The notes beneath the pieces are model-generated. The model saw nothing but the letters and a program-made list of their open reading frames with translations. It ran no database searches and had not been told where the DNA came from. A stretch of 64,000 nucleotides of DNA from Bilabrum cf. latius (lineage: Eukaryota). Positions 1,220 to 62,867 of the stretch are shown piece by piece. The first letter of the stretch is position 1; every line of letters starts with the position of its first letter. The translations under genes were made by a program, and so were the position numbers. Where the stretch lies: assembly GCA_965178125.1 (NCBI GenBank), contig OZ237738.1, forward strand, positions 868,001-932,000, given 5' to 3'.

Positions 1220-1813
1220 TTATCTCCTGCCCTACTCGCCTTGCTGCGCCACTTCAGCATCCTTAGTGGGGATTTCGCTCCCCAAGAACGATTCGAATGG
1301 ACTATTTTCATCCTAAGTCCTGCTAGATATCAACTGAATGCCAGCCTCTCCAGCACTCTTTTGAAGCTGCGCCAGCTGGGTGACATCGTCGCACAGCGGG
1401 TTGCCTGTCACATCCAGAAATCGAAGTGATTTCGGTGCAAGATCCTCTAGATTGAAACCTGTGATTGCATTGTCTGCTAAAGATAGCGCCTCGAGCTGCG
1501 TGCACTGCTTCCACAGCCCCGCGTGAGCGGATGTCAAGCAGTTGCTCGCTACGTCGACAGCGCACAGCCCGTCCAGGCCAGCAATTGACTCTGGCAGTGC
1601 AGTGAGCATATTTTTCTACAATATCAGAGCCGGTACACAACCTTCCAGCTTTGAAAGCACAACTGCAAGCCTGCAAGCACAAGCCCCACCTAGATGCTAA
1701 CACATTATGTTGCGGCAAAGCAGGTCCTTCGATGCGCGCATTTCGATGACCTACGATGTATGCTTGCATGAAAGAGCCTGCGCAAGACTTCTTGAGCGCC
1801 GTACCCCTTTCAT
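1220..1813 (-). CDS. Leucine-rich repeat protein (~197 aa, reading TAG as Gln)
   Basis: ATG at 1813 to TAA at 1220, interrupted only by TAG. LRR consensus in LIL(TAG)KNMLTALP, VDVASNCLT, LSLADNAIT and LDVTGNPL. Confidence 0.75.
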
Positions 1814-1965
1814 AGGCGAGATATGGTTATTCGTACATTTTCCAGAGTTGCACAGGTTCCCTTCGGTTCGTCAGGGTTCGCAGGCCGGTATTACGGCCCG
1901 GTAATCGAAATGTACAGGCTTCTACCGCGTTCACTGTATCGTATCTCATGCATTGACTGGCATAA

Positions 1966-4020
1966 ATGTTATTTGCGGGTTGTTTGCTTTTGGGATGCGG
2001 CATTTTGCATGTAATCGGGTGGCGCTGGGACGGAGTCTCGTCAACTGCCGACGAGCCACCACCGCTGTGGGAAGCCAAACTAGTTTCATTCGCCTCACAC
2101 CATGCGTACATGCTTGGGGGAGCTCGACTGCGAAAGTCGGGTATGCATGCAGTCTCAACAATTTACGAGCTGAATATATGGGAAAGCAACGGGGCACAGC
2201 CCTTGCTAGACGATGATACGGCGGACGATAACTCAAGATTCGCTGATGATACACAGAATGACGACCCACTACCCCCTGAAGCGTAGTCTGTGTGGAGCTC
2301 ATGGAGTTTCGCTAGCCCGGAAAGACGGCCTATTTCAAAGGCAAGGCACTGGGATGTTCAGTGGACGCGTCTTGAACAGACGCTTAGCTAGCCGCGTGCC
2401 GGGCATGCTGCACACATACTGAGCATTCCCCGCCACTGCGATTCCATGCTGCGTGGAAACGCCTTGACTGACTGGATTTTAATGTGGGGCGGCTCATAGA
2501 GGAACGACGTCGAGCTCATTCATGCAAGGAAGCCCTCCCAACGACACGTCGCTCGGCCCTTGAAAGCAGACGGACAAGACGCTGCGGGCAATCGCGAGCC
2601 GCCTTCCCGAGCACAGATGGGCTCTACCGTCGTACCATTCGATGAGCTGTCTAGCAACTTCGTCTCTTGGCAGCCTGGTGATGGTGATGCAGCCATCAAC
2701 CGCAAGAGCCGCCGCAGCTCAGATCGCTCGGACAGAAACATGAACATGCCTGCCCTGTTTGTTGTGTACGGCGGACGCAAGACCCACAGTGATGCGCACT
2801 CGCGCAGGATGCGACAGACAAGCAGCCTTTCCGACTGTGCCGCTGCACCGCCAGCGGCGGCATGCGCACACAAGCCGGAGGACAGCTGGGACAGCAGGGC
2901 ATCCAGCCAGCAGTCACGACAGGGATCGGGTAGCGTTGAAATTCTGCACGGTGGCTCCACTAGTGGGTGGCAGGCATCCCCTGAAGATGAAGGGGCTCTC
3001 GGAGATCTGTGGATTCTGCCCATTTGGCAAGCCGCAATCAAGAGCGGAGGATCAGGGGACACAGTGGAGGGTATTTCGGGTGGGAAGCAGGACTCGTTCC
3101 ACGCAGGTGATTGCAATCACACGCAGTGGGTAGTCCCCATCTTTGTGGATTCAATGCAGCACGTGCTGTCTGAGACAGCTGCTTCGCACGAACCGCCGCA
3201 CGCAGGAGCTAGAAGCATCGGAAGCACCAGCAGTCAGCTGGCCGGCCTTGATGCAACAGACAAGCTGTCGCCGTCTGCCAGTACCGGTCCGTCGCCGCGC
3301 TGGGCCACCTCCATGAATTACCTGGGGCTGTCCAGCCAAACCGGTCTCCTGCCACCTGGAACGGGAACCCCGGGCGATGTGGATTGCGCAGTGCTGTCAC
3401 TGGTGGGTGGCAGGATCTCAGAACGGGCTGACTAGTCGGCTGACGATGCGTGGCTGCTATTTCTGTGCCCTGGAGCGCACTCTGGTGGTGCCAGTGGCAT
3501 CAACAACATTCACGTGATGGCGACCTGGCAGCAGGTCCGGATCGTCGGGCAGTACCCGCAGTTTGGGGCCAGCGCAGTTGTGCTGGGCGGTCGGTTGCCG
3601 GGGAACAAAAGAGCGCTGCAGGTGGTTCGCATCGGCGGTGGGGTCGTATGGCGCGGTCGCTTTGGAGTGGATGTGGTAGACTTTGATTCTAGGGAGCTCA
3701 TCCTGCCTGGTGTGCAGGGGCCTGCGCCGGAGCACGGAGATGGCGTGGCGGTGTGCATCGTGCAGGTGGAACCGGTAGGCGAGACCATCGAGGTGCAAGA
3801 TGAAGTGGTGTTGGCATTCGGTGGGTTTTCTGCGTTCGAAGGGGTGGTGAGCGACCGCCTGGAAGTGCTGAGTAACGCCTTCCAGGACAAGAGCGGGAGG
3901 GATGCATGGGTGCTGCTGGCGGTGGGCGGGGCGGCCTTGGCTGGGATTCCCGTGTATTTGGCGCACATTGCTGGCTGGTTTGATCGGCTCGGCGCTTGTT
4001 TGTGCTGCCAACAGTTATGA
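1966..4020 (+). CDS. Kelch-repeat-like beta-propeller protein (~684 aa, reading TAG as Gln)
   Basis: ORFs 1966-2286, 2560-3435 and 3514-4020 share one frame and are separated only by TAG. Kelch-like motifs: AYMLGG, PRAGHAAHIL..ILMWGG, LFVVYGG, PSPRWATSM..LSLVGG, PAPEHG..VLAFGG. The 3' end may be spliced. Confidence 0.65.
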
Positions 4021-4098
4021 TGCTGCACCAATAAGATTTTCTTGTTTGATTTGTCGATTCCGACCGTCGGCATATGTATGTGCAGCACTGACACTAGT

Positions 4099-5958
4099 TC
4101 AAGGTTTCGCAGCAGCCTTCGCCCTAACTACCTCAAGGCAGGTGCGAAGCCTGCCGGCATCAAAGCCCACTGCAGTGATCTATGCCTCCATGCTAGCGCC
4201 CGGCACCCGCAGCGTGGCGAAGGACGAGTGGGCCTCGCCCGTGCCTGCACTCTTCCCTGTGGCGGCATGGGCATGGGATGACGACGATGTGGAAACAGAG
4301 GTGCGTCGCTCCAGCGGCTTTGCTTCGCAGTCGAACGACCGCCACTCACAAGCGCATATAACGTAGTAATGCGGGCTTCTATCTGTCATTCCGGGCTGCA
4401 GGATCAGCACGCCAGCGTCACTCGCGACCACCGCCACTGCATGCTTGCCGTCGTCGTCTGGAAGACCCACCAAATACCGCAACCCCGGAGGCAACGCTTC
4501 GACTTCCTTGCTCGGCCAGATGCGTTTGACATCTAAGATCACGGGGAATGCCACCGAGCCCGCGCATGGGTTGCATTGCATCTCGCCGGCCACGCCGCGG
4601 TGGATGGCGTGCCGCTGCTCGTCCGACTCGCCCCGCTTGAGCAGCTCTTCCGCTCGCTTGCTCGCGTCTGCGAGCACACCGGCGCGTGCCTTACCCTCTG
4701 GATCCACGCACTGTGGCAGGACCTCGTCCAGGAAATCGAACTCGCCGCCCAGGATGCCCTCAAGGTTCTCTGGATCACCGCGCGCTAGGGCTAGAACGGA
4801 ATCTACCAGCATGGCTCTCTTGTGACCACTCGACGCGTCGATCGCCACGAGGCCGTTTTGCGCCTCGTCGAGCATCTGCGCGAACTGCACCTCGCCCTCC
4901 TCGGCGCACTGGATCGAATCTGACAGCCCGCGAGCCACCGAGTCGGGCAGGCTTGCTTCTCGCAACAGGTGCGAGGCCACCTCTTCGCACAGCACTGATA
5001 GCTGCACGGAAGAAATGGGGACGCTGGTTTGACTGCTTATAGTCCCATCAAATGCGGTGCCGGACCCAGAGGCAGCCTGGCCGCCCGCTGCACCACCGGC
5101 GACCCCTGCCAGTGGTCCGGCATCCCGGGCCAGCACAGCCAATCCCGCCTGCCCAGGTCCAGATGGGTGGCTGAGGTATCTCACCCTAGGAGGGGGTGAC
5201 ATACTTAATAGAGATTGCGTTGATTGAACGGTGGATTGATGGGAAGGCTTGCTGTTTGTCGCGCCACTCTACGACTGGCTCGTCTCGTCTGACATACGAC
5301 CCACGATCTGGAACACCATTGCATCATCACTCGGAGCCAGCGGGTTGATTTGCAGTGTACTAACAATTTGTTTAGCTACACTAGACCCAAGACACACTTT
5401 TCTCATCGAGAGACGACACTCAAGCTCTGGATACATGGCCTGCCACTCAGCAACCTCGTGAGCAAGGATTGCTGCGTCTGGAAGTGGCTGTGACAGCTTC
5501 ACAATGAGTGAGGGGCCAAGAGCAATTTCATGCACAGGATCGTCGTCTACATCTTCGTCTTCGTCGTCGCTAGCGTCTAGTTTTTCGTGCGGTTCTATGC
5601 ACAGACTCCACTGGTGTACGCAGTTTGAGGCGACTACTTCAGGAACCCCAATCAGGTCACCAAAGATGCGCGTTAGTGCACCTAATACAGTTTCAGTCTC
5701 TCGCATAACAAAGGGAACCTCTATCATCGCACCATCTGGATACTCGACCGGAATCCTGCCAACGGAAACACTGGCCGAGGCAACGGTGCTGCCCGCGAGG
5801 CGAGGCTGAGCAGACCCAGCCGGTACAGATGGCCGCCTTGGTGCAGGAGGTGGTTTAGGCAAGACTTGAGTTCCAGACATTTGCTTGATAACCTATGTTT
5901 TGGTGTAATCGAGTTGGTGCTGTGGATCAAATCTGCGTTTTCCGGTTTTGAGGGTGCT
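4099..5958 (-). CDS. Hypothetical protein, probably the last exon of the gene starting at 9185
   Basis: ORFs 5269-5880 and 4180-5202 are in one frame joined through TAG and end at TGA 4099-4101. The frame opens just after a TCCTCTGTGCAG acceptor-like site at 5959. A phase-0 GT donor at 6041 would join it to the upstream frame. Confidence 0.55.
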
Positions 5959-5975
5959 CTGCACAGAGGACCACG

Positions 5976-8900
5976 TCAACCACTCCAATCAGCCCACGCA
6001 GCGGCGTCTTCTATTTGAATTCCCTCGCATGATCCATGCACACCATCTCTACCTCGTAGCAGGCTAGCGTCAAACGGGAGGGAGGCATCTGTGGCCGCGG
6101 CCCGCTGTGCGACCGATCCTGGCCCCCACCTTTCTCCCGCGAAATCCATCGAGTCTTCGCCAAACCCAGAGTGGTACTAGGTATCAAGCATCACGTTTAA
6201 GCTATCTATTCCACTTCCGTTTACTCGAACCGGCCCCGTTAAGCCGGACAGCAGAGCAATCTGACTCGGCAAATTGGGGTCAAGCGGGAGATTGCCCGTC
6301 CTGGTCGCAGCAACGTGCAATGCACCTTTGCACAGTGTCCCGGTCGGCAGGGTCTCCTCGGGTCTGGACCGTTCCGTGTTTTGATCTCCGCGATGGTCGA
6401 GAGACGCGGCCCCGACCCCGTGCCCCACCGGCACCAGCCCGACCTGCTCGGCAGCCCCCACCATGGCAGCTCGGAGCAGAAATCGCCAAGCCGAGCTGGG
6501 CCCGTCAGAATCGTTGTGGACAGGTCGCGTGGCTCTGGGCAATTCATAGTTGGTCACATCAGAAGACCCTTCCAAGTGCACCGGGACAGTGCTAGCCCAG
6601 CTCCCGGTGTCCGGCCGCCACGTCGGTCCGCTATCCCGGCCAAAGCTCCCATTGCCAGCCGATGGCGATACATTCTCCGCGTTCTGTTTGCACAGCTACT
6701 CATCTAGCCTTCGTGCAACCTCTGCGATCACCAGGGCTTCTGCTGGCACAGCAGCGAGCAGAGTGGCAGCCGATAGCAGCTGTAGCGCGGTTGTGGTTTG
6801 TCCTCGCTTCAGAGGGTTCGGTCCGGCAACGTTGCTGCCGGCCGCCCCAGCGCCCTTGCACGTTTGGGATAATACATTGACCTTCACGTGTCCGATCGTC
6901 TGTTTCAAGCACGACTGCCTGGCCCTTTGAGATAGTGCCCAGTCGATCAAGGAACCTTGAGCTAGCTCCGCGTCGTGACTGGTCCCGGACAAAGACAAGC
7001 ACGACTGCAGCGCTTTCTCCCCGATACAGCGCAGCTGCCTTGAATTGTTGCGCATCATTGCTTGCACTGGATCAGTCAGCCAGGGGGCATCGTACCACCC
7101 TATTGGTACCTTTGCCTCTATTTCGTGCTCCAACGGTGCAGCTTGGGACGATTTCCAGCCAAGAGAAGCATTGCCCGCGTGTGCTCCATGCCCTGCATTG
7201 CCTGCATGTCGGTACAATAAACCCTTGTCCCCATGGCCAGGTGCCTCTTGTTTGTCTAGAGAGGCGACAGTTGCCATGCGGCTCCATTTCCACGGCAATT
7301 CCACGACAGGAGGCAAGCTGCTCTCGATCTACAGCGCATCTGCCATCCCTCGAGAGCCACGGATCACAGCATCCAGGGGGTCACCGCGCTCACTGCTCCG
7401 ACTCTTGTATGCTGGAAACGGATACAAACGATGATCAACGCCTGCAAAGGCATACGCGGCCACGCGCACGCGCCAGTCCTGGACGCTGTCGAGGTTCAGC
7501 CACAGCGAGTCGAACGAGTGCCGCCTGCCAACCCAGGAAGCCATGTGTCTCGCTACTCCAAAGAAATCAGTCGCAAACGGCTATTCGTAGCGACCACTCT
7601 TCAGCTCTCCTCGTTTCCTATCCCAGTGGTTCACCGAGTCGAGCACCGCAACCAGACGGTCCAGCCTCTCGACGGCTGTGCTTGCACCGCCTCCGAACTT
7701 AGCACGGGCCATTCCATCCAGTCCACCCAGCACAGCTTGCGGCAATATGCCCAGATTTGCGCCAAACAGCTACACCTCCAGGAAAGTGTACAACAAGGCA
7801 CGCGTGCTTTCGTATCGGGCGGCCGGCACAATGACACCAACAGTGCGGCGCAGCAAGCTGTGGATCGCCAGGGCGGGATCTGCCACAGCATAAATCACCC
7901 TGTGTGCCCCCATTGCAGCAAGTATTCCGGGAAGCATAGCGTGTTTCGCATTGTCCGTGTTGCTCTTGCTGTTCAGCATCCTTGTGACGTTCTCGAACCT
8001 CAACGCGCCGAGATCATCGTCCGCGGCAGGAGACGCGTTGCTAGATAGCTCAAACCCGAGGCCTTTGCAAAGGTCAGTCACCTGTCCAGAGCCAGGCGCA
8101 GTGCGAAGATCCTACCACTGGCTTAAACACTCCAAAATACTCCGCGTTGGGTCCAGCCCTTCGGCTGTGCCTTTGCGGAGTAACGCTGAGCGAGCCTGTG
8201 GGGCAGTGCCGCTTCGGTTGCCCACGCTGCTCTGGCTTTGCTGTCCTTGTGGACCGACTTCAAGCCAGCGTTTGCTCTCGCCAGCCAGACCTACGGCTAC
8301 TGCCTGAAATGCCGTGTCCGAACCCTTCAAGAGATCCACAACGATAGCGTCTCGCACACCACCATACCCGACCACCGCGACCTGCTGGGAGGGTGCCACA
8401 GCGGTAGCCGTTTGGATGAATGGTTGCTCGCTTAAAGGAGAGAGCAGGGACTTGACACAGTTGCTGCCGCTGCTGTTCACAACCTATGGAGACGAGGAAC
8501 AGCCATGAGTGGACCGGAGCTGCAGCAGCCGAGCAGCAGACCCCCGAGCACTGCCGCCGGAGCGGGTTTTGAACCGAGACAATCGCTCAAAAACTAATTT
8601 GACTAGCTATGGTGCCTAAACCGATCCAACATTCAGCACTTTACGGCCATCACGAGCAGCCGCGAGCGCATGCTCCAGTATCCGAAGTCGGGCGTTGCCG
8701 GCGAGCCTTAGCAGCTCGAACACATCGTGCTTCCGCTGGTCGTGCGCCATAATTCCGGTCAACAACTTGCAGCTCCTATCATATTCACGGTGCGATACCT
8801 GCAGCCCGAGCATCTAAGCGAGTACGAAGTCTTTGAGCCGCCTTCGCTGCACACTGGAGCTGGCATTCTGCACTCTGGGCACTATGATGGGAGCACATAT

Positions 8901-9185
8901 AACATGGCGGTGCAGAAGTCTTGAAACGAAGTTCGAATTCCGGAAGCTGCGGCTGCCATTCGCAGGCAAGTTAATGCGGCTCTGGTAGCGACACATTGGA
9001 GCAGACACGGTGATCTATCGCAATGCACAGGTGGCCCCAACATCCATATGATACACAGGCGGCCTGAATGTGTTGACAATAGAACCGCTTATCACATTGA
9101 AAGCAACATCGATAGCTCCTATCGTGGTCCCGGATACAGCAAAAAGGGACGACAGTACACTGAGCAACACGAAGCAGAATACCAT
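5976..9185 (-). CDS. Large secreted hypothetical protein (signal peptide; weak sulfotransferase-like motif)
   Basis: ATG 9185 begins MVFCFVLLSVLSSLFAVSGTTIGA. Seven ORF-track fragments from 9008 to 6177 are in this frame, joined only by TAG. First TGA at 5976, or the gene splices 6041-5959. Confidence 0.6.
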
Positions 9186-9533
9186 CGTCTTTCAGCTGAA
9201 AAATCAGGAGAAAATCACAGACATAAATTCTATACCTTGGTAACAATCATTCTGCACGGCAGTGCAAATGTGTACGACCTGTATTCGTTGTTATTTTGAA
9301 CATTTGCATAAACCTGTTCATCGCATAAACTGCACTGCACTGACGATAGCTCTCGCGATGATTTCCTCGAACTTTCCACAGCGTCGGACGTCATGTACGT
9401 AAACAAAGTTACGTAGTGGTCGATAGCCTTAATTGTAGTATTGTGTATTGCTTCAGCAGCGTACTGGTCACTGGGATTCGGCGGGGCGGCTGCCACGGGG
9501 TCAACTGAACCACTCGTGAACGGGCTTTATGCC

Positions 9534-12497
9534 ATGCAAAACCGGTGGAAAATTGGTTAGATGTACCTCAGAGTCTAGCCCGGTACTGGAAGAATGGTTG
9601 ACGTGTCATCACTGATGCTGCTGAACTCGGGTTTGCTTGGGAACATCGAGAAGAGTCCTCCGATTGCCGAAGACACTACGGTTATCACGCAGCAGTTACC
9701 GGCAGGGGGGGATATGTCCGATGCGCGTTGGACAATTGGCCCTCTGGTGGCATCCAGCCCGCGGTATTTTATTGGAGAGCAGGGGGAAGGGACAGAAACC
9801 CCAGACCAAACGGACTGGTGCTGCGGACCTGGAATCCCCAGAGTGCAGGGCTTCGGCCCATCACCAGCAACACTTGAAGAGATAGTCGACAGCGCGAAAT
9901 CCAATTTTCTTGCATCTGATAATGCGAATGGTGGAAGAGCAGTGCTTTCCAATCTCCTGGGTCGCCCAGTGGACGTTCTCGTGATTTTAATCTGCGCGTG
10001 GCTGTTCATCCGGACTGCTTCGGGTGCAGTGTCTCTCTCTGCCGTGCACGTGTCGGCCGAACAGGCATGGTATTAGACAGAATACTTTCGGTTCTTTTCC
10101 TCGGCGTTTGCGCACGGGGGCATCATGCACATTGGGTTCAATCTTTCGACGCTCTACACAGTTGGGCAGGTGGAGCCTGGGTACGGCTCGATCGTGTACC
10201 TCACTTACACGATTGCAATGGTGTTGCTGTGCGGGACAATTGCTTCGCTCATCTCTATCGCTCTGGCTCGCCGCCTGGCAGGAGCGGGCGCAGGCGAGGA
10301 CGCCACTGCCGGGGCGCAGCGGATCTTACAGCCCGCCGTAGGCTATTCTGCTGTGCTGTTCGCATGGCTTGTGGTCGCCACTTCCCAACGGGAGTCATAC
10401 TGCCCCGTCCCCATGGCGCCGGGACTATGCCTCCCAACGTGGAGGGTGCCGGTCCCCTTCAGTGGAGGCGTGACGATCCCTGTCAACCTGGCTCCTTTCC
10501 TCTCCCTGGCATTCATTTAGCTGTTCATTCGCAGGGCCTCGTTCGTGGGCCACCTTGCCGGCATAGTGGCTGGGTATCCTTTGTCCTGGGGTGCGCTGTC
10601 TTGGATGTCCTTGCCCATGCTGACACATCTCGTACTACTCTTGGGCGCGCTGCATGCCGCCGCTGTATGGCACGGCAAGGAGGCGTCAAGGAGGGGCGTG
10701 CTGTGGGCCAGCAATGGATGGACGGGCCCGTGTGCCTAGTGCATGGGGGTATGCTCCAGGTGTACGCCAGGGCAACTATAGAACCAGGGCAATGATGGTG
10801 CCCCAGCAGCAGCCCAGCCGCAGCTTCAGCTGTAGTAGCACCAACAGCAGCAAGAGGAGGAGGGTGACGTGACTGCAGCGAGGGACCGTGCGGCTGCTGT
10901 TGGTGGGATCGGATGGTTTTGGAGAGAGAGCGGCGCATTGGCTGGCGCTGGTGGGGGTGGCAGTGCCATGTAGGAAAGTGGTGGTCGGTTCACCGGCGTG
11001 GGTGGCACGGCAGGCGGGGAGCAGGTGTGGGTGACCCCGCGGTCGGACATTCGCGTCATCGATCCGGCAGGGGACCGGCCGGGCGCAAAGCTGGTGCCGA
11101 TTCTCCTGGTGGCTGGCCTCGGCTGCAAGGTGATCGGTCTGCTGCTGCGCGTGGCAGTCTTCGACTGGCGGTCGATCATTGCCGAGCTGGCTGGGTGCGC
11201 TGCAGCCTGGATTGCCATCAGTGGGATTGCGTAGCGACTCGCCGCACCTCCTGCACTGCCCGCCCCGCAACCCAGGAGAAGTGGTGCCAGCAGGATCACT
11301 CCGCATAGCCACGCAGTGTCTGGCCTACCCGTGGAAGGTGGAACCTCTAGCTCGCAGCGCGACCCAGACGCAGAGTCTGCAGGCTTGCTGCCAGCCGATG
11401 GAGCAGCAGACCGAGCGCCAGGCCCGCGCCAAGCAGCGTCGGCAGGCTCGAGACTTGAAGCTGTCTTGCGAGCAATCACTTCGTGCCTGCCAAATCTGTC
11501 TGTATTGCGAAGCCCCTGGAGGCTGGTTGGCTGGATGCACGACCTGGCAAGACGCAACGGATGCTTGCCGGGAATCTCCGCCGAGTGGGCGTGCGTTTGC
11601 TTGGGACTTGCTGCTGGACTTGATCTGATCAACTCCTCGGGAACCTCAGCTTCGATGGTTGTGCTGCAGGATGTCTACCGCCAGCTCGGCGCGACGTGGG
11701 CTGGCATTGCTGCGGGCTGGTGCGCTGTCTGCCTCAGTCTGGCCTCTGCTTGCCTCCTTCTCGGTGCTTTCGTAGCCGTGTATAGTCTATCTCGATTTAC
11801 TGCCATAGAAGTAGGAATCGCTACTCTCTATCGGGTATTTCTGGGGTCTGGAGCTGACTAGGCTAATGGGGCCTCTGCCTATGAGGGGTAGGCTGTAGAG
11901 GCACCGCGCTGGCTGGTGGGATCTCGCACCGTTATTGTCGGTGGGGTTGCAACCAGCGTGGACCGGGACGGGACGCGAAGAGTGAACCTGGGCGAATCCA
12001 TGTCTGGATAGGTTGATCCCGAGGCGTACGACGCAAGGACAATGGCAGAAGTAGCAGAAGATGCTGAGCTCGGAACTCGAAGGCAGGCAAGCGGTCGGGC
12101 TCCGGATGGTGCCGCCGCGCCGTGGCAACGAAATGTGGGTTCGGCAGGAGGCCAAGGATAGGGCTCGAGGGATCCTGTCTTGGACCGCATGCTTGGTGTT
12201 AACCCAGCATCGCCAGACCGAGCGGATGCATCATCGAACGGCACCGGAGGTGCTTCAGCTGCACAAGGACACCGGGTCGGTGGTGAGGTGCCAGCCTCGT
12301 CAAGCGCAGCGCAGTCTGCGACTGATAGACGGGCAGCGAGGGCAGCTGCTTTGGATGCTAGGCGTCTTGCTGCATCGAGAGTTGGAAGAGCAGGCGTAGA
12401 CAATGGCATCTAGGAGAAAACGCCAAATCTACCAGCCGGACGGCGGGACCAGCAGGCCTCTACAAGACTTGGAAACAGTGATCGTACGGGGAAATAA
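9534..12497 (+). CDS. Rhomboid intramembrane serine protease (RHBDD1/RBL-like) with a long C-terminal extension (~987 aa)
   Basis: EYFRFFSSAFAHGGIMHIGFN, catalytic AVGYSAVLF, and FI(TAG)LFIRRASFVGHLAGIVAG with the catalytic His. One frame to TAA 12495-12497 when TAG=Gln. The start could be 9534 or 9594. Confidence 0.85.
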
Positions 12498-12575: not shown

Positions 12576-15500
12576 TTACAAGTCATCGGGGCTTTCGTTC
12601 CCGTCGTTGTCGGACCTAGAGCCAGCCTCCTCGCTGCTGCTGCCCTCCAGCGCGCCAAGGCCCGTCCCGGCCACGCCTCTCGCCACCATCTCGTCAATTT
12701 CAGCAACACTGGGAAGCTGCACCATTGCTGACATGAGTCCAGCAGGAGATACAAACAGCGCTTCGCGAGACAGCTTGGCTGCCGGTTGAGGCCCCCTGCG
12801 CGTATTGCGATTGACCACTCCTTCTCCTGCTACAGCATCAAGCCCGAATCTTCGCTGCCGCGGCGCAACGGCGGCCTCCAGGCGCCTTCGGACAGCACCC
12901 CTATGCTTTTGCCCCGCATTTACCAACCTTCTATCGTCACTGCTACCTGCACTTGCCCTTGCTGCCTTTGCACCCGACCGTATGTAGGATGCAGACTGCC
13001 CTGACGTAGGAGGGAGGGCAGCGACTGGACTCGCCCCGGTATCAACATCGCCACCTTCGTCGTCACCCAGGGCGGCTCCACCACTTGCCGCAGCGCTCTG
13101 GGTTACTGCATCGTCCATGAATTGTTCCAGGTTTGCTGAGCCTAGAGTATCTGCTCCTTCGTCACGTAGCACGCCTCCATCGTCCGGGAGGTGCCTTCGA
13201 GCTCGAGCAGCTGCCGACACGCGAGTGTACGCACCATTAGGGTCGCCCTAAGACCTCTCACTCCTCGCTGAAACGCTCATATCGTCCGGTGGAGGCTGTG
13301 AGTGCGCACTTCCGCTGCTGTTCGAGGCCCTCGAGTGAACACTCCGGAGCAAACCAGGGCTGTCTCCTGCCCACGGCGCACTTTCGTTCATGCCAGCTGC
13401 CGATGAAGCAGGCTGCAGCACAGCCCGCTACCCGCCGGTCCAGCCCCTTGTAGTTGGTCGTCGGAGCGAGACGTCATGTCTGCTATCACGCTTCTTCCTG
13501 CGGTCTCGCCTCTCTTCCTCCTCCTCAGCCACCGCCATAATGAAGGCATCCTCCCGAGACATCTGTTCCTACCCGTCTGGAAAGTCCTGCACGGAAATTG
13601 AGTCGGACCCTGCGCCTTCGAAGTCGTCGTCAACGGCGGAGGGGAGCCCCATCCGGCGCTGCTGCAGGACTTGCGCCTGCTTGCCGACAGTCTTGATGCG
13701 GTGCTGTTGGAAGACGGCAGCCATACGATCCGGCTTGGACCGTCGCATGGACGCGTCAATATCATTGCTCGACCTCACGGAAGACACAGACCGCAGTGCG
13801 CCTACCTTGTCTCGCTCTTTATCGTCAATATCGATGCCGAATGATTCTTCCTTCTTCTTCTTTTTGCTGTCTCCAGCAGAATGCATGCTTCCGCTGCTAT
13901 TCTTCCCAGCTGATGACCCAGCCCCGCTGCCTGCGTCTGCTCCGACCTGGAGCGCTGCCTTCACACGGTCTCGCCGATCCACAATTTCAAGATCTCTAGC
14001 GGCACCGAGCTGCACCTCCTCCACCGTACCAAGCACTGCCTGCATCTCTCTTGATATGGTAGGCTGCAGACCCGATCGCAGCCGCGTGCGTACCCTTTCG
14101 ATCGTATAGATTGCCCTGCGGTCGTCCACATGGGTCCCAGACGCGTCAAAGTTGCGGAGCACGCTCTCATCAGGCTGAGCCAAGGGAGACTTTTCTGAGA
14201 AAAGCTGCAGAACTTCTTCTGGTGTGCCCTTGAACATGCGGTCAGCCTGCCGTGCTTCACCAAGTAGGAAAGGATGCCTAGCCAACTGTTGCGCACCGTA
14301 GCGATGCCGCGGATCCACGTCCAACAGGCCCCTGATGAGATCAATCAGCACGAAGGGTAGCGTCGTGGGCAGCTTGCGCCACCTCACGTAGCCATGCCTG
14401 ACGCGGTATAGGAGCTGCGCCTGCGTGCCAGGCTGTAAGGGCAACTCTCCACTCGTGGCACGAAACAATACTGCGCCCAGGGCCCAGTAGTCTGACGCGG
14501 AGCTGCCTCTGTGCTGCAGGCACTCGGGCGCGAGAAAGTGCAGTGTGCCTGCCGGAGCTCCAACAAAGGGTGCGTCCTTGACCCAAATGGAACCTGCATC
14601 ACGGTCGTACCCGCCTTGCAATTCATCGTCCGTGTCTTCAGTTCCACCCGCAGACCCTGCTGTACTGCTCTTCGCGCTTCGCTGCTCTCCGTTCTGCTTC
14701 TAGCCGCGATTCATACCGCCTTGATGATTCTCGAGTTGGACTTGTGCGGCACTGCCCGCTTGCGTAACACTCTTTGGAATGGGCGCCTTGGCATTCGAGT
14801 GTGACCCCACAGTCAGAATCTCTTGATCTTCTTCGTGCAATTCGGTTGGCTGCGAACCTTGTTCGCCATAGCTCCCACTTGTAGTCGCACGGTGACTGGT
14901 TCGCAGCAACGACTTGCGCAAGCTGCTTTCGGTTATCCCTAGCGACTCGGAAGTGGTTCGACTATGTGATGAGCTTTGTTTCCCTCCCGATGCGTCCATG
15001 GAAGGGACATGCCTTGCCCGAGACGCGCTTGCGCCTAATACAAGACCGGTTCGCAGCTGCTGCATTGGCCGCCTCCACCTTGACAGCTGAGCGTCAACAA
15101 GAGTGAGAAAGTACTGCCACGCAGCTGCCCGCATGCGGCTACCCCGCACGATGATCTGGTCCACGCATGTTGTCGTGCTGTATGAATGCAGAACGTGTAC
15201 AGTTAGCTCTCCGGGCAGATTGCATGCATCATACACAGCCTGGCGCGTCTCTGAGGGGCAGCCCGGCGCCAGCACCACCGCGACTTGTGGCAGCAGACAC
15301 CGGAGCATGAAAGCTGTCTCATCGCATAGCACCGCAGAATCTGCACCGCTACCAGAAGATGCAGCAGATTGCACCATTTGAATTGCCTTGGGCTGTAACA
15401 AGCCACCCCCAGCAGCAGCCGCAGCGTCACCTTCTGCGGCTGAAGCTTCTAATACACCGGCGCGACGCGCAACACGCTACCAGGCCGCTTCGCCAAACCG

Positions 15501-51600: not shown

Positions 51601-52386
51601 GTGCAGCCACAGTTCCCTGCGGTGCTGCACAGGTACCATCTGAAGCGCTTCGCTGACCCGGAGCGGTGGCTCCGGGCTCGGCAGCGGTTCACACGAAGCA
51701 CGGCCTGCTGGGCCATGGTGGGCCATCTGCTTGGGCTGGGCGATCGCCACGGAGAGAACCTGCTGATGGACGACACGAGCGGGGATCAGGTGCACGTGGA
51801 CTTCGACTGCCTGTTTGACAAGGGGCTGTCCCTGTCACGGCCCGAGGTGGTGCCCTTCCGCCTCACCGCCAACGTGCTGGATGCGATGGGCCTTTGGGGG
51901 TACGAGGGAGGCATGCGTCGGTCCAGCGAGGCGTGCATGGCGGTGCTACGTGCGAACGGGAGCACGCTGCTGGGCGTGCTGGAGTCCTTCGTGTACGATC
52001 CACTGGTGGAGTGGACTCGAAGCAAGAGCAAGGGAGGGAGGCACTCTTCTTCTTCTTCCTCGTCTTCGTCCTCGTCGGCGGCCGCGGGTGGCGCGGTGCT
52101 GCCGACCGACGAGGTGCCCAGCACGGCGGTGGGGGGCGAGGTGGAGAACATCGCCGGTGTGACGATTGTGAGGCACATCAAGGAGAGGCTGCGGGGAGGG
52201 TACAACGTGCGGCCGCCGCACCGGGACAAGTACAACGTGAGGACGAGGAGGCACGCTGCGGACGATGGCAGGCTTGCGGGGGGTCGCACGATCGGGGTGC
52301 AGGCGCAGGTGCACCGGCTGATCTCCGAGGCGTCATCGGTGGAGAACCTGGCCTAGATGTACGTTGGGTGGATGCCGTTCTTGTGA
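39613..52386 (+). CDS. ATR: ATR/Mec1 PIKK checkpoint kinase (~4257 aa, about 30 in-frame TAG)
   Basis: One frame from ATG 39613 to TGA 52384-52386. FAT region, then kinase motifs FLCKQELSGDLRKDARMME, GLMEWV, GLGDRHGENLL, HVDFDCLFDKG and PEVVPFRLT. FATC end ENLA(TAG)MYVGWMPFL. Confidence 0.92.
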
Positions 52387-53013: not shown

Positions 53014-53401
53014 GGAGGGATGTGGTGGGCTGTGCGTGGCCTGTTTGCTTCCTGTGAAGCTGATGTTCCAAGTAAGCGAGGCCGCCACGCCAGGCAAAGG
53101 CCGAGCACCTTGAAGTTGTGAACTTCTTGAAGATGAAAACAGCCTGAACCGGACCAGAGTGGATCGATCTCACCGACTCATTGTCAGTTTCATCGATACT
53201 GTTTCGAGTGCAGCATCCCCAACTAAAGCCTTTCTAGATACAGGGTTGAGTTGGAGCGAATCAGAACTAGCCGGCGAACAGGTACACAAGAGAAGGGCGT
53301 GCACAGTAAAGCTCGTATTCCCTGTCATTCTGACGTCGGCAGCCACCTGGCTGGCCTGCGTATCAGCAGTCGATACTGGATACAAATACTGCCTGGAAGC
53401 C

Positions 53402-55051
53402 ATGGAGCAAGCAGCAGGTGCACGCTCAGGGGAGGTGATCGATCTCGTCAGCAGCGACTCAAGCGACAGCGACTCTGGTGGAAGCGATGTCGAGGTTCCC
53501 GACCGCCGCATGAGCACGATTGCTGCATCGCTCTCATTGACCAGCAGTCGGTAGTGGGGCAGGCGAGAGGCAGGTGGGAAAGGTAGGGCCCGAGATTCAG
53601 CGAGCGATCGAGCCAAAGCTGTTCCCACGTCCATCGTGGCGTCGGGACACTCCAGCAGCAGCGCAATGTTGCCGCAAGAAGTGCAATCTTCAATGCAGTC
53701 AAGCTCAGGGGTAGATGCAAGCGGCGGCACCGATGCCTCTTTGGGCCAGAAGCGAGGCAGGCAGGTAGAGGCGAGGTCAGCAGACAGCTAGAGCGGATCG
53801 AGGGGAAAGAGACGGCGTGGGCAGGCAGGCGCAATCGGGGCAGGACATCGGTGCAGCATGTGCGGGCAGGCGTTCGGTGTGGCAGGCCATCTCAGGACGC
53901 ACATGAGGACTGTGCACATGGGCGAGCGCAAGCACGAGTGCATGGAGTGCGGCAAGTCATTCGGACAGGCAGGCAGTCTCAGGAGGCACATGAGGACTGT
54001 GCATGTTGGGGAGCGCAAGCACGAGTGCAGTGTGTGCGGCAAGTCATTCGGGCTGGCAGGCCATCTCAGGAGGCACATGAGGACCGTGCATCTGGGCGAG
54101 CGCAAGCACGAGTGCATGGTGTGCGGCAAGTCATTCGGTGTGGCAGGCAGTCTCAGGAGGCACATGAGCACTGTGCATTTGGGCGAGCGCAACCACGAGT
54201 GCATGGAGTGCGGCAAGTCATTCGGTGCGGCAGGCAGTCTCAGGACGCACATGAGGACCGTGCATCTGGGCGAGCGCAATCACGAGTGCAGTGTGTGCGG
54301 CAAGTCATTCGGACAGGCAAGCAATCTCAGGATGCACATGAGGACGGTGCACCTGGGCGAGCGCAAGCACGAGTGCAGTGTGTGCGGCAAGTCATTCGGG
54401 CTGGCAGGCAGTCTCAGGACGCACATGTCCACCGTGCATGTTGGGGAGCGCAAGCACGAGTGCAGTGTGTGCGGCAAGTCATTCGGACAGGCAGGCAGTC
54501 TCAGGAAGCACATGTCCACCGTGCATCTGGGCGAGCGCAAGCACGAGTGCATGGTGTGCGGTAAGTTATTCGGGCGGGCAAGCAATCTCAGGACGCACAT
54601 GTCCACCGTGCACATGAGCGAGCGCAAGCACGAGTGCAGTGTGTGCGGCAAGTCATTCGGGCGGGCAGGCGATCTCAGGACGCACATGAGGACCGTGCAT
54701 CTGGGCGAGCGCAACCACGAGTGCATGGAGTGCGGCAAGTCATTCGGACAGGCAGGCAATCTCAGGAGGCACATGAGGACCGTGCACATGGGCGAGCGCA
54801 AGCACGAGTGCATGGAGTGCGGCAAGTCATTCGGGCTGGCAAGCAATCTCAGGACGCACATGAGGACCGTGCATCTGGGCGAGCGCAAGCACGAGTGCAG
54901 TGTGTGCGGCAAGTCATTCGGGGAGGCAGGCAGTCTCAGGAGGCACATGAGGACCGTGCATCTGGGCGAGCGCAAGCACGAGTGCAGTGTGTGCGGCAAG
55001 TCATTCGGGCTGGCAGGCTCACTCAGGAGGCATACGCGGGGTTGCCATTGA
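53402..55051 (+). CDS. C2H2 zinc-finger array protein, copy 1 (14 fingers, ~549 aa)
   Basis: ATG 53402 MEQAAGARSGEVIDLVSSDSSDSD is in frame with the array through two TAG. Fourteen 29-aa CxxC-x12-H-x4-H units. Ends TGA. Confidence 0.9.
53852..55048 (+). repeat. 87-bp coding minisatellite, 14 units
   Basis: Repeat unit CACGAGTGC....TGCGGCAAGTCATTCGG....CTCAGG...CACATGAGGACCGTGCATCTGGGCGAGCGCAAG. Confidence 0.95.
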
Positions 55052-55686: not shown

Positions 55687-57176
55687 CTCTTCGGGGACCT
55701 CATCTGCACCGCGCAGCAGAAGCCCAAGGATTCCAAGGCGAAATCCATGAGCGTCCGCATCTCAAGCTCTCGGCAGTTCCGGGCGGTGCCGGTGCTCCTA
55801 CCTACTCAGTCCGCGCTCACTGTGCGCCTCCCGGCTGGAGGAGCTTCAGGGGCTGCATCTGCGGCTGCAACGGCTGCCGCGGGCAGCGGTGCGGGCGGTG
55901 CATACCAGGCTGGGCATGGCGCGCTGGCAGGCTTCCCCCCGGCGGGAGTGCGCCCCACGATCGACCAGTTTGAGCAGCGAGCCAAGGTGATGTCGAGCAA
56001 GGAGAAGCCCAAGCAGCTGACTGCCGTGGGCTCGGACGGTCGCAGGTACCACTTCCTGTGCAAGCAGGAGCTCTCGGGCGACTTGCGCAAGGACGCCCGC
56101 ATGATGGAGCACTCCACGGTGGTGAACCGGCTGCTGGCGTCGGACCACGAGGCCAGCAGGCGCGCGCTCCGGCTGCGCACCTACGCGTGATCGTGACGAG
56201 CGAGAGCACGGGGCTCATGGAGTGGGTGGAAAACTGCACGCCGTTGCGCTTCGCCGTCAAGGAGGTCTACAATGACCTGGGCGTTGACAGTCCCATGCAC
56301 CTAACGCTCCGTGTCATGAAGCCGCTGCAGAAGAACCAGGACAACCAGAATCAGACCACTGCAGCCACGGCAAGGTTCTTCGCCTCTGAGGTGCAGCCAC
56401 AGTTCCCTGCGGTGCTGCACAGGTACCATCTGAAGCGCTTTGCTGACCCGGAGCGGTGGCTCCGGGCTCGGCAGCGGTTCACACGAAGCACGGCCTGCTG
56501 GGCCATGGTGGGCCATCTGCTTGGGCTGGGCGACCGCCACGGAGAGAACCTGCTGATGGACGACACGAGCGGGGATCAGGTGCACGTGGACTTCGACTGC
56601 CTGTTTGACAAGGGACTGTCCCTGTCACGGCCCGAGGTGGTGCCCTTCCGCCTCACTGCCAACGTGCTGGATGCGATGGGCCTTTGGGGGTACGAGGGAG
56701 GCATGCGTCGGTCCAGCGAGGCGTGCATGGCGGTGCTACGTGCGAACGGGAGCACGCTGCTGGGCGTGCTGGAGTCCTTCGTGTACGATCCACTGGTGGA
56801 GTGGACTCGAAGCAAGAGCAAGGGAGGGAGGCACTCTTCTTCTTCTTCCTCGTCTTCGTCCTCGTCGGCGGCCGCGGGTGGCGCGGTGCTGCCGACCGAC
56901 GAGGTGCCCAGCACGGCGGTGGGGGGCGAGGTGGAGAACATCGCCGGTGTGACGATTGTGAGGCACATCAAGGAGAGGCTGCGGGGAGGGTACAACGTGC
57001 GGCCGCCGCACCGGGACAAGTACAACGTGAGGACGAGGAGGCACGCTGCGGACGATGGCAGGCTTGCGGGGGGTCGCACGATCGGGGTGCAGGCGCAGGT
57101 ACACCGGCTGATCTCCGAGGCGTCATCGGTGGAGAACCTGGCCTAGATGTACGTTGGGTGGATGCCGTTCTTGTGA
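55687..57176 (+). pseudogene. ATR: Duplicated 3' end of ATR (kinase domain and FATC) with a 1-bp deletion
   Basis: Near-identical to 50896-52386. TACAGCGTG becomes TACGCGTG at ~56185, shifting the frame inside the kinase N-lobe. 5' truncated. Confidence 0.85.
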
Positions 57177-60723: not shown

Positions 60724-60754
<31 letters not shown>

Positions 60755-60826
60755 GCGCGCAGGGAGAGGGTGGAGAAGGCGTCCGGCGAAGGAGGGGCAG
60801 CGAGCGAGAACGGTGCTTCTCCGTGA
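60125..60826 (+). CDS. Gly/Ala-rich, poly-Q ORF, copy 3 (open from an ATG across the unit junction)
   Basis: 233-aa ORF with the same C-terminal half as copies 1 and 2. Confidence 0.35.
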
Positions 60827-61217
60827 GGAGGGATGTGGTGGGTTGCGCGTGGCCTGATTGCTTCCTGTGAAGCTGATGTTCCAAGTAAGCGAGGCCGCCA
60901 CGCCAGGCAAAGGCCCAGCACCTTGAAGTTGTGAACTTCTTGAAGATGAAAACAGCCTGAACCGGACTAGAGTGGATCGATCTCACCGACGCATTGTCAG
61001 TTTCATCGATACTGTTTCGACTGCAGTATCCCCAACTAAAGCCATTCTAGATACAGGGTTGAGTTGGAGCAAATCAGAACTGGCCGTCGAACAGGTACAC
61101 ACACAAGAGAAGGTCGTGCACAGTAAAGCTCGTATCCCCTGTCATTCTGTAGTCGGCGGCCACCTGGCTGGCTGCGTATCAGCAGTCGATACTGGATACA
61201 AATACTGCCTGGAAGCC

Positions 61218-62867
61218 ATGGAGCAAGCAGCAGGTGCACGCTCAGGGGAGGTGATCGATCTCGTCAGCAGCGACTCAAGCGACAGCGACTCTGGTGAAAG
61301 CGATGTCGAGGTTCCCGACCGCCGCATGAGCACGATTGCTGCATCGCTATCATTGACCAGCAGTCGGTAGTGGGGCAGGCGAGAGGCAGGTGGGAAAGGT
61401 AGGGCCCGAGATTCAGCGAGTGATCGAGCCAAAGCTGTTCCCACGTCCATCGTGGCGTCGGGACACTCCAGCAGCAGCGCAATGTTGCCGCAAGAAGTGC
61501 AATCTTCAATGCAGTCAAGCTCAGGGGTAGGTGCAAGCGGCGGCACCGATGCCTCTGTGGGCCAGAAGCGAGGCAGGCAGGCAGAGGCGAGGTCAGCAGA
61601 CAGCTAGAGCGGATCGAGGGGAAAGAGACGGCGTGGACAGGCAGGCGCAATCGGGGCAGGACATCGGTGCAGCGTGTGCGGGCAGGCGTTTGGACAGGCA
61701 GGCAGTCTCAGGACGCACATGAGGACTGTGCATCTGGGCGAGCGCAAGCACGAGTGCATGGTGTGCGGCAAGTCATTCGGGGAGGCAGGCAGTCTCAGGA
61801 GGCACATGAGGACTGTGCATCTGGGCGAGCGCAAGCACGAGTGCAGTGTGTGCGGCAAGTCATTCGGACGGGCAGGCAATCTCAGTAGGCACATGTCCAC
61901 TGTGCATCTGGGCGAGCGCAAGCACGAGTGCATGGTGTGCGGCAAGTCATTCGGTGCGGCAGGCCATCTCAGGACGCACATGAGGACCGTGCATCTGGGC
62001 GAGCGCAAGCACGAGTGCAGTGTGTGCGGCAAGTCATTCGGACAGGCTGGCAATTTCAGGAGGCACATGAGGACCGTGCATCTGGGCGAGCGCAAGCACG
62101 AGTGCATGGTGTGCGGCAAGTCATTCGGGCTGGCAGGCCATCTCAGGACGCACATGAGGACCGTGCACATGGGCGAGCGCAAGCACGAGTGCATGGTGTG
62201 CGGCAAGTCATTCGGGGAGGCAGGCAGTCTCAGGACGCACATGAGGACTGTGCATCTGGGCGAGCGCAATCACGAGTGCATGGTGTGCGGCAAGTCATTC
62301 GGGCTGGCAGGCAATCTCAAGACGCACATGAGGACTGTGCACATGGGCGAGCGCAAGCACGAGTGCAGTGAGTGCGGCAAGTCATTCGGGGAGGCAGGCT
62401 ATCTCAGGACGCACATGAGGACCGTGCATCTAGGCGAGCGCAAGCACGAGTGCATGGTGTGCGGCAAGTCATTCGGACAGGCAGGCAATCTCAGGACGCA
62501 CATGAGGACTGTGCATCTAGGCGAGCGCAAGCACGAGTGCATGGTGTGCGGCAAGTCATTCGGGGAGGCAGGCAGTCTCAGGACGCACATGAGGACCGTG
62601 CATCTAGGCGAGCGCAAGCACGAGTGCATGGTGTGCGGCAAGTCATTCGGACAGGCAGGCAATCTCAGGACGCACATGAGGACTGTGCATCTAGGCGAGC
62701 GCAAGCACGAGTGCATGGTGTGCGGCAAGTCATTCGGGGAGGCAGGCAGTCTCAGGACGCACATGAGGACTGTGCATCTGGGCGAGCGCAAGCACGAGTG
62801 CAGTGTGTGCGGCAAGTCATTCGGACAGGCAGGCGATCTCAAGAGGCACACGCGAGGTTGTCACTGA
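61218..62867 (+). CDS. C2H2 zinc-finger array protein, copy 3 (14 fingers, ~549 aa)
   Basis: Same N-terminus. Fourteen 87-bp units with a helix-residue series different from copy 1. Ends TGA. Confidence 0.9.

What the first reader, a model, noticed from the sequence alone, without database searches (positions are those of the whole stretch)
1220..62867. Nuclear genetic code variant: UAG read as Gln while UAA and UGA remain stops
Seen: on both strands, ORF fragments fall into one frame and are broken only by TAG. Examples are ATR (12.8 kb, about 30 TAG), the 10.3-kb and 8.6-kb minus-strand genes and the transposase. TAG sits where the family typically has Gln: ATR FATC ENLA*MYVGWMPFL (52354), rhomboid-like F*VYR (23230) and rhomboid FI*LFIRRASFVGH (10518). 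It also sits inside Gln tracts (CAG CTG TAG TAG CAC CAA CAG CAG CAA at 10833-10838; MAEG*P*ANQQNPQ). Genes end in TGA or TAA, and the convergent pair ending at 12497 and 12576 both end in TAA with a 78-bp gap. Established: UAA and UAG are usually reassigned together in nuclear codes. UAG-only to Gln (the NCBI table 15 pattern) is rare, known for example from the fornicate Iotanema and a few ciliates. Inference: a GC-rich, intron-poor protist like this may be an independent origin.
Basis: partly seen in the sequence, partly recalled or inferred. Interest (0 to 1): 0.92.

Follow-up and report, generated by a model that had tools for sequence, protein, structure and literature searches.

The report
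Protist genome reading UAG as glutamine
This GC-rich, intron-poor protist DNA uses the stop codon TAG as an ordinary glutamine codon while TAA and TGA still end genes, a rare genetic-code variant known from only a few unrelated lineages.

Summary
Only reading TAG as sense opens frames of 12.9, 10.5 and 8.8 kb. 14 frames (18,169 codons) hold 134 in-frame TAG and no TAA or TGA; 12 end in TGA and 2 in TAA. Contigs of three runs that look like RNA (my inference) break at gene borders and match the DNA with no introns or edits, so TAG stays in the message.

The amino acid is glutamine. In 26 places where a relative and the window differ between TAG (or an ORF break) and a sense codon, the partner is CAG/CAA in 16; no other residue exceeds 2. 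All 9 ORF fragments of relatives that stop inside a gene stop on a window CAG (6) or TAG (3). A relative's 6.4-kb metagenome contig shows the same code.

TAA is a real stop: 0 in frame against about 59 expected.

ATR groups with unnamed sequences next to a labyrinthulomycete and MAST-4, so probably a stramenopile. Five literature searches found no such case there.

tRNA-Gln(CUA) and eRF1 could not be examined, because no genome is held. Verdict: real; a new member of the known UAG-only-Gln kind.

The parts
39493..52386 (+). ATR-type PIKK gene (FAT, HEAT_ATR, PI3_PI4 kinase, FATC). 4,297 codons stop to stop, 34 in-frame TAG, ends in TGA directly after the FATC motif.
52354..52356 (+). TAG 10 codons before the ATR stop, inside FATC. 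It lies opposite CAA (Gln) in relative L001/P0047 and opposite Q of human ATR.
46666..46668 (+). ATR TAG (codon 2392), opposite Q in close-relative fragment P0054.
47431..47433 (+). ATR TAG (codon 2647), opposite Q in close-relative fragment P0046.
49639..49641 (+). ATR TAG (codon 3383), opposite CAG in L001.
12576..23048 (-). Giant membrane protein-kinase gene, 3,490 codons, 29 TAG, ends in TAA (12576-12578). Fragments of relatives break at its TAGs 641, 1160 and 3207. A relative has Q at TAG 3160 and L at TAG 1031.
24484..33267 (-). Giant gene with cyclic-nucleotide-binding domains, 2,927 codons, 15 TAG, ends in TGA.
9312..12497 (+). Rhomboid-domain gene, 16 TAG including TAG TAG in a Gln tract at 10833-10838. 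It ends in TAA (12495-12497). The RNA-like contigs end at 12529-12540, and the next in-frame TGA is at 12729.
22927..24339 (+). Rhomboid-like gene with a UBA domain, 2 TAG (23179, 23230). The homolog column at 23230 is E 77 / Q 47 of 138. Fragments of relatives end on its CAG codons 23656 and 23794.
1966..4020 (+). Gene with no known family, 4 TAG, ends in TGA.
4099..5988 (-). Gene with no known family, 3 TAG, ends in TGA. An RNA-like contig covers 4069-5890.
5976..9191 (-). Gene with no known family, 11 TAG, ends in TGA. RNA-like contigs run from 5924/5934 to 9251/9283 with no differences from the DNA.
34861..36294 (+). PUNUT-family transporter gene, 3 TAG (the last 11 codons before the stop), ends in TGA.
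36698..39361 (+). Gene in a lower-GC stretch, 9 TAG, ends in TGA.
53114..55051 (+). C2H2 zinc-finger array gene (87-nt finger units), 2 TAG, ends in TGA. Paralogues lie at 58050-59507 and 60927-62867, with TAG at the same two places.
55930..57176 (+). Duplicated copy of the ATR 3' end, 99.4% identical to 51139-52386. It keeps the same in-frame TAG.

Best explanation
The organism is a GC-rich, intron-poor protist, probably a stramenopile. It has fully reassigned UAG from stop to glutamine in its nuclear code, while UGA (the usual stop here) and UAA still terminate translation.

Shown:
- UAG sits in frame in every gene of the window.
- UAG is kept in RNA-like contigs.
- UAG alternates with CAG/CAA between orthologues.
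- TAA and TGA occur only at gene ends.

Inferred from established knowledge of other UAG-only lineages (PMC5304391 section 9; PMC11687900 introduction and discussion):
- A tRNA-Gln with anticodon CUA, derived from tRNA-Gln(CUG), reads UAG but not UAA.
- eRF1 has lost recognition of UAG while keeping UAA and UGA.
For: 1. Only TAG-as-sense opens long frames: 12,894, 10,473 and 8,784 nt. The longest frame is 2,715 nt under the standard, TAA-sense or TGA-sense codes and 1,962 nt in 50 Markov sequences.

2. 14 frames total 18,169 codons, with 134 TAG, 0 TAA and 0 TGA in frame. The other two frames of the same DNA hold 70 and 64 TAA. TAG makes up 16% of Gln codons (127 of 792 from the first ATG).

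3. The frames are real genes: ATR, protein kinase, cNMP-binding, two rhomboid-type, PUNUT and C2H2 arrays.

4. Contigs of runs X5, X6 and X7 break at gene borders (5924/5934, 9251/9283, 9387-9390, 12524-12540). Their depth differs from gene to gene (X5: 34.5, 12.4, 44.8, 78.5, 15), whereas the DNA run X1 is flat at 20.4. They show 0 gaps. The only joint, in X5 and X7, rests on about 22 letters a side, and I take it for an unrelated match. The only differing letters are 2, in one X6 contig.

5. Residue identity. Of 26 places where TAG, or an ORF break of a relative, faces a sense codon, 16 are CAG/CAA (E 2, L 2, R 2, D, G, A and S 1 each). All 9 fragments of relatives that stop inside a gene stop on a window CAG (6) or TAG (3). 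CAR codons are 3.8% of the window's codons.

6. Against 21 distant ATR homologs, Q is the best-fitting residue for the 34 TAG columns. Log-likelihoods: Q +11.2, S +4.8, E -25.5, L -178, W -218, Y -243.

7. Relative L001 has 17 in-frame TAG in 1,977 codons, no TAA or TGA in frame, and both of its genes end in TGA.

8. TAA is a stop. About 59 in-frame TAA would be expected if it were used like TAG (134 x 214/483), and 0 are seen. If TAA were sense, the two TAA-ended genes would run on 77 and 91 codons, past the ends of the RNA-like contigs.

9. TAG occurs 10, 11, 27 and 28 codons before true stops, so it is not avoided near gene ends.
Against: - Ten of the 26 pairs are not Gln.
- At the one well-conserved family site with TAG (23230), homologs have E (77) more often than Q (47).
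- CAG/CAA are not enriched within two codons of TAG (0.94x, against 1.60x for Q near Q), while Tyr is (2.15x, 15 counts).
- The terminating codon of the Logan fragments was not seen as DNA. Only L001 was.
- That X5-X7 are RNA is my inference. The tool lists them as a guess, and X5 as 'probably DNA'.
- No tRNA gene lies in the window or in L001, and no genome is held. The tRNA-Gln(CUA) and eRF1 steps are therefore untested.
- The sample is 64 kb plus 6.4 kb. Occasional use of UAG as a terminator elsewhere in the genome cannot be excluded.
Confidence: 0.88

Rival explanations
1. UAG is a sense codon but codes for another amino acid, such as Glu, Leu, Ser or Lys.
For: At the conserved rhomboid-like site, homologs have E 77 against Q 47 of 138. 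Relatives show E twice and L twice opposite TAG. UAG = Leu, Ser and Glu all exist in other lineages (PMC11687900 discussion).
Against: Q accounts for 16 of 26 pairs, and no other residue exceeds 2. All 6 fragment ends that fall on a sense codon fall on CAG. The ATR column likelihood favours Q over E by 37 log units and over L by 189.
Confidence: 0.04
2. The code is ambiguous or context-dependent: UAG is read as Gln inside genes but also ends some genes, as stop codons do in Condylostoma-type codes.
For: Only 14 frames were seen, so rare UAG terminators could be missed. TAG is somewhat less frequent in the 3' halves of genes (KS p = 0.006).
Against: None of the 14 frames needs TAG as its stop. 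ATR reads through a TAG 10 codons before its TGA and goes on to the conserved FATC end. TAG lies 10 to 28 codons before the stop in 4 genes. TAA and TGA are never in frame, unlike in codes with no dedicated stop.
Confidence: 0.05
3. Both UAA and UAG mean Gln (the common table 6 code), and TAA is merely rare because the genome is GC-rich.
For: TAA is the rarest stop triplet in the window, with 209 and 188 on the two strands.
Against: There are 0 in-frame TAA in 18,169 codons, against 70 and 64 in the other two frames and about 59 expected from the CAA/CAG ratio. Two genes end in TAA, and the RNA-like contigs end 32 to 52 nt later, whereas the next TGA is 77 and 91 codons on. L001 has 0 in-frame TAA in 1,977 codons.
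Confidence: 0.02
4. The DNA is not nuclear. It could be a giant virus or another element with its own TAG = Gln usage, as this scan noted on other DNA.
For: Earlier notes of this scan describe a soil giant virus that reads TAG as Gln.
Against: The gene content is cellular: a 4,257-codon ATR that groups with stramenopile ATRs, giant low-complexity kinase and cNMP proteins, and C2H2 arrays. The DNA contig of run X1 that carries the stretch is 36,012 nt long. No viral hallmark family was hit in Pfam.
Confidence: 0.02
5. No code change has occurred. The TAGs would be removed by splicing or editing, or the genes are dead, or the assembly is wrong.
For: None was found.
Against: Only one of the three stop codons interrupts the frames, and there are no frameshifts. 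The same sequence appears in runs of three studies with 0 gaps, 2 differing letters in one contig and no supported joint. A divergent relative keeps open frames with its own, different TAG sites.
Confidence: 0.01

Closest known systems
Nuclear code of Iotanema spirale (Fornicata): UAG = Gln, UAA and UGA stops (PMC5304391, abstract and section 9 read)
   Same: The codon table is the same: UAG alone is reassigned to Gln, uncoupled from UAA.
   Different: The lineage is unrelated: here ATR groups with stramenopile-type sequences. The paper calls UAA the primary terminator in Iotanema, whereas here TGA ends 12 of 14 frames. The Iotanema eRF1 change (T32G) could not be looked for here.
Ciliates Hartmannula sinica, Trochilia petrani and Protocruzia tuzeti: UAG = Gln only (PMC11687900, abstract, introduction and discussion read)
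   Same: UAG-only Gln, with wide use of UAG inside genes and no sign of a dual meaning.
   Different: According to the paper, those phyllopharyngean ciliates use UAA as the stop in 86.9 to 98.3% of genes. Here the genome is 59% GC and UGA dominates. The lineage is different.
UAR = Gln codes (NCBI table 6: many ciliates, hexamitins, Streblomastix, ulvophytes, Amoeboaphelidium)
   Same: The amino acid is the same, and a tRNA-Gln(CUA) probably takes part in both.
   Different: TAA is not a sense codon here: 0 in frame, and it ends 2 genes.
Rhizarian exLh and TARA phyllopharyngeans (UAG = Leu); Scotinosphaera (UAG = Ser)
   Same: UAG is reassigned alone, and UAA is kept as a stop.
   Different: The amino acid differs. 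Leu and Ser each fit far worse here.
Giant virus reading TAG as Gln, noted earlier in this scan (e1-5483481, e1-5483535)
   Same: The same codon table was read from DNA alone.
   Different: That is viral DNA from another genome. This window carries cellular genes. No link between the two was tested.

Membership tests
UAG-only Gln nuclear code (table 15 pattern) | In-frame UAG in many bona fide protein-coding genes | tested here: met
   134 TAG in 14 of 14 frames, which include ATR, kinase, rhomboid, PUNUT and C2H2 genes.
UAG-only Gln nuclear code (table 15 pattern) | UAG corresponds to Gln in orthologues and homologs | tested here: met
   16 of 26 TAG-versus-sense pairs are CAG/CAA. All 9 ORF-fragment ends fall on CAG or TAG. 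Q is the best fit in the ATR columns. One conserved site is E > Q.
UAG-only Gln nuclear code (table 15 pattern) | UAA is not a sense codon and terminates genes | tested here: met
   0 in-frame TAA in 18,169 codons, plus 0 in 1,977 codons of L001. Two genes end in TAA, with the RNA-like contigs ending just downstream.
UAG-only Gln nuclear code (table 15 pattern) | UGA terminates genes and is not a sense codon | tested here: met
   0 in-frame TGA. 12 of 14 frames end in TGA, including ATR directly after FATC.
UAG-only Gln nuclear code (table 15 pattern) | UAG is kept in the mRNA (no splicing or editing) | tested here: inconclusive
   Contigs of X5-X7 are colinear with the DNA and break at gene borders with gene-specific depth. 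Their RNA nature is a guess of the tool plus my inference.
UAG-only Gln nuclear code (table 15 pattern) | UAG is not used as a terminator | tested here: inconclusive
   0 of 14 frames need it, and TAG occurs 10 to 28 codons before true stops. The sample is too small to speak for the genome.
UAG-only Gln nuclear code (table 15 pattern) | tRNA-Gln with anticodon CUA is present and no tRNA(UUA) | not testable with these tools
   No tRNA gene lies in the window or in L001, and no genome is held.
UAG-only Gln nuclear code (table 15 pattern) | eRF1 N-domain altered so that UAG is no longer recognised | not testable with these tools
   eRF1 is not in the window, and no genome is held.
UAR = Gln code (table 6) | In-frame UAA at Gln positions | tested here: not met
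   0 in-frame TAA against about 59 expected.
Codes with no dedicated stop (Condylostoma or Blastocrithidia type) | All three stop codons appear in frame as sense codons | tested here: not met
   TAA and TGA are never in frame in 18,169 codons.

The most novel reading that the evidence does not exclude
This would be the first nuclear stop-codon reassignment in the stramenopiles. It would be an independent origin of UAG-only Gln, shared by a clade rather than confined to one species: relatives at about 90%, 68-74% and 51% protein identity all show ORF breaks at Gln positions. It would also have arisen in a 59% GC genome where UGA, not UAA, is the main terminator. That background is the opposite of the AT-rich, UAA-dominated one of the ciliate cases, so explanations that lean on UAA being fixed as the preferred stop would not apply.
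Probability: 0.5. Interest if true: 0.78.

Novelty: new member of a known kind. Interest (0 to 1): 0.68.

Why it matters
Uncoupling of UAG from UAA is rare. The papers read here list one fornicate and three ciliates for Gln, plus the Leu and Ser cases. Each new independent case tests ideas on why the two codons usually change together.

This case has a different background: a GC-rich, compact, intron-poor genome in which UGA is the common stop.

There is also a practical point. Gene callers that use the standard code shatter this organism's genes. Public protein collections hold its relatives' genes as fragments of 86 to 388 residues. Annotations, metagenome bins and phylogenomic matrices for this lineage will therefore be wrong until code 15 is used.

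It may also point to hosts for the TAG = Gln giant viruses noted elsewhere in this scan. That link was not tested.

Tried and rejected
- Whole genome: none is held. No genome-wide codon inference, tRNA search or eRF1 search was possible.
- tRNA and RNA families: ARAGORN found no tRNA in the window or in L001. Rfam found nothing in the window at gathering thresholds.
- Sequencing runs: no RNA holder is listed on record. X5-X7 are guesses.
- Neighbour test, asking whether TAG sits next to Gln codons: no enrichment (0.94x).
- PDB alignments for the two rhomboid genes: the GlpG alignment stops one residue short of TAG codon 255 and does not reach 10518. The rhomboid-like gene had no hit.
- PDB alignment of the SpoU-type gene of L001: TAG faces H, N and H, and K, T and V, in three methyltransferases, which is uninformative.
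- ATR columns against distant homologs: most of the 34 TAG sites fall in gappy, unconserved columns. Only the summed likelihood is usable.
It was not pursued.
- Loci L002-L011 of the metagenome scan are AT-rich or intron-rich unrelated organisms and say nothing about this code.
- Names for the nearest ATR homologs: only the P0014 cluster carries one (MAST-4).
- Transposase label for 36698-39361: no support.
- Supplements of the two papers were not opened. Their eRF1 alignments and tRNA tables may bear on the mechanism.


Full report
**What is in the window.** The window is 59% GC. Under the standard code the longest stop-to-stop frame is 2,715 nt. Reading TAG as sense opens frames of 12,894, 10,473 and 8,784 nt. 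Reading TAA or TGA as sense leaves the maximum at 2,715 nt. Fifty first-order Markov sequences gave at most 1,962 nt under the TAG-sense reading.

I took 14 frames as genes, totalling 18,169 codons. They hold 134 in-frame TAG and no TAA or TGA. The two other frames of the same DNA hold 70 and 64 TAA. Twelve frames end in TGA and two in TAA.

The frames are real genes by Pfam:
- an ATR-type kinase with FAT, HEAT_ATR, PI3_PI4_kinase and FATC domains;
- a giant protein kinase;
- a giant protein with cNMP-binding domains;
- a rhomboid;
- a rhomboid-like protein with a UBA domain;
- a PUNUT transporter;
- three C2H2 zinc-finger arrays.

The ATR C-terminal part matches human ATR at E = 1.7e-84.

All cited TAG positions (52354, 23230, 10518, 10833-10838) are TAG. 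The convergent pair ends in TAA at 12495-12497 and 12576-12578. One example fails: 'MAEG*P*ANQQNPQ' (22959) lies between the first ATGs of two divergent genes (22922 and 23005) and in another frame, so it is probably not coding.

**Is TAG still there in the RNA?** One run search listed a DNA holder (X1) and three runs that the tool guesses to be RNA (X5, X6, X7), from two other studies. No holder is on record as RNA.

Laid on 1966-21965, X1 covers the stretch in one contig at a flat depth of 20.4. The contigs of X5-X7 break at gene borders: 5924/5934, 9251/9283, 9387-9390, and 12524-12540 where the two convergent genes overlap. Their depth differs by gene (X5: 34.5, 12.4, 44.8, 78.5, 15). They show no gaps and only two differing letters, both in one X6 contig. 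The single joint listed, in X5 and X7, rests on about 22 letters a side; I take it for an unrelated match.

I read these as transcripts that are colinear with the DNA, with no introns and no editing of TAG. That reading is my inference; the tool labels X5 'probably DNA'.

**Which amino acid?** Distant homologs help little. Against 21 ATR homologs most of the 34 TAG sites fall in gappy columns. Summed over the columns, Q still fits best: Q +11.2, S +4.8, E -25.5, K -27.1, L -178, W -218, Y -243. Q is enriched 2.11-fold in the TAG columns, against 2.90-fold in the window's own CAG/CAA columns.

The FATC site is Q in human ATR but in only 7 of the 21 homologs. At the conserved rhomboid-like site 23230, 138 homologs give E 77, Q 47, R 4, H 4, G 3 and Y 1. 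At 23179 they give D 45, G 20, N 19, P 11, S 10 and A 5, of 130.

A test of whether TAG sits next to Gln codons was negative: 0.94-fold, against 1.60-fold for Q next to Q. Tyr is 2.15-fold enriched, on 15 counts.

**Close relatives settle the question.** Searching for shorter proteins found ORF fragments 86 to 98% identical to the window's ATR and kinase, and one at 78% identity to the rhomboid-like gene. It also found a 6,420-nt metagenome contig, L001.

L001 carries the ATR 3' part and a second gene. Together they hold 17 in-frame TAG in 1,977 codons and no in-frame TAA or TGA, and both genes end in TGA.

In the codon alignment of ATR with L001 (1,373 codons, 68% identity) there are 14 TAG sites. 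Seven face CAG or CAA. The rest are D, E, R, A, S, R and L, once each, mostly in diverged context.

Inside the fragments:
- window TAGs face Q at ATR 2392, ATR 2647, ATR 4288 and kinase 3160;
- kinase 1031 faces L;
- in the 51%-identical fragment P0100, the two rhomboid-like sites face G and E.

Nine fragments stop inside a gene. All nine stop exactly where the window has CAG (6) or TAG (3). Two further fragments end at the true C-terminus. The terminating codons of the Logan fragments were not seen as DNA.

In total, 16 of 26 TAG-versus-sense pairs are Gln and no other residue exceeds 2. CAG/CAA make up 3.8% of the window's codons.

**TAA and TGA.** If TAA were used like TAG, in the CAA/CAG proportion, about 59 in-frame TAA would be expected; none is seen. 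If TAA were sense, the two TAA-ended genes would continue for 77 and 91 codons to the next TGA. That is well past the ends of the RNA-like contigs, which lie 32 to 52 nt after the TAA. ATR ends in TGA right after the FATC motif that ends all its homologs.

TAG occurs 10, 11, 27 and 28 codons before true stops, so it is not avoided near gene ends. It is somewhat less frequent in the 3' halves of genes (KS p = 0.006).

**Which organism?** The best named ATR matches are oomycetes (Albugo, Pythium) and the labyrinthulomycete Hondaea.

In a quick maximum-likelihood tree of the last 1,100 residues, the window and L001 pair up (support 100) on a long branch. They sit inside a clade of seven rows with only unnamed sequences (support 99). 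That clade lies beside Hondaea and P0014, and apart from oomycetes and green algae. The cluster of P0014 carries the EukProt name 'Stramenopile-MAST_4'.

A stramenopile near Sagenista is therefore my best guess. It rests on one gene, a quick tree and a compositional outlier.

**Comparison with what is known.** UAG-only Gln is reported for Iotanema spirale (PMC5304391, abstract and section 9 read). It is also reported for Hartmannula sinica, Trochilia petrani and Protocruzia tuzeti (PMC11687900, abstract, introduction and discussion read). UAG-only Leu and Ser cases also exist.

Those papers describe UAA as the dominant terminator. Here TGA is. They infer a tRNA(CUA) that cannot read UAA, together with changes in eRF1. 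I adopt the same mechanism by inference only.

Five full-text searches listed no paper reporting a nuclear stop-codon reassignment in a stramenopile, labyrinthulomycete or MAST lineage. The library covers open-access papers and bioRxiv only, and supplements were not opened.

**Verdict.** It is a new member of a known, rare kind of code, probably in a supergroup where none has been described. The tRNA, eRF1, proteomic proof and firm placement of the organism remain open.

Noticed in passing
window 50893-53200 and 55684-58000, with further partial copies near 60271-61013 and 63630-64000: A segmental duplication. The ATR 3' end plus downstream DNA is repeated at 98% identity (99.4% over the last 1,248 nt), leaving a headless ATR kinase/FATC fragment at 55974-57176. 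It is interleaved with three paralogous C2H2 zinc-finger genes built of 87-nt finger units. This could be a real tandem array or an assembly effect.
   Followed up: partly
window 36698-39361: An 887-codon gene with 9 TAG in a lower-GC stretch (0.51 against about 0.59).
   Followed up: partly
window 3902-4068: The RNA-like contig of X5 for the first gene ends at 3902, 118 nt before that frame's TGA (4018-4020). X6 has no depth at 3967-4633 and X7 has 0.3. The true 3' end of this gene is unclear.
   Followed up: no
window 5890-5934, 9251-9390, 12524-12540: The genome is very compact. Over 20 kb no intron is seen. The gaps between RNA-like contigs are 33 and about 135 nt. The 3' UTRs are about 30 to 50 nt, and the 3' ends of the convergent pair overlap by about 15 nt.
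   Followed up: partly
all genes: Tyr is 2.15-fold enriched within two codons of TAG (15 counts), while Gln is not enriched. Part of this comes from TAGs upstream of the ATR start codon. The rest is unexplained.
   Followed up: no
P0100 (168 aa, 51% identical to window 23152-23655): A more distant relative's fragment also ends exactly on a window CAG, which hints that the code is shared by a wider clade. At the window's two TAG sites it has G and E.
   Followed up: partly
L001 4295-6049: In the relative, the gene downstream of ATR is a SpoU/TrmH-type RNA methyltransferase with 8 in-frame TAG (PDB 1zjr, E = 1.5e-14). In the window the zinc-finger array sits downstream of ATR instead, so gene order differs.
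   Followed up: partly
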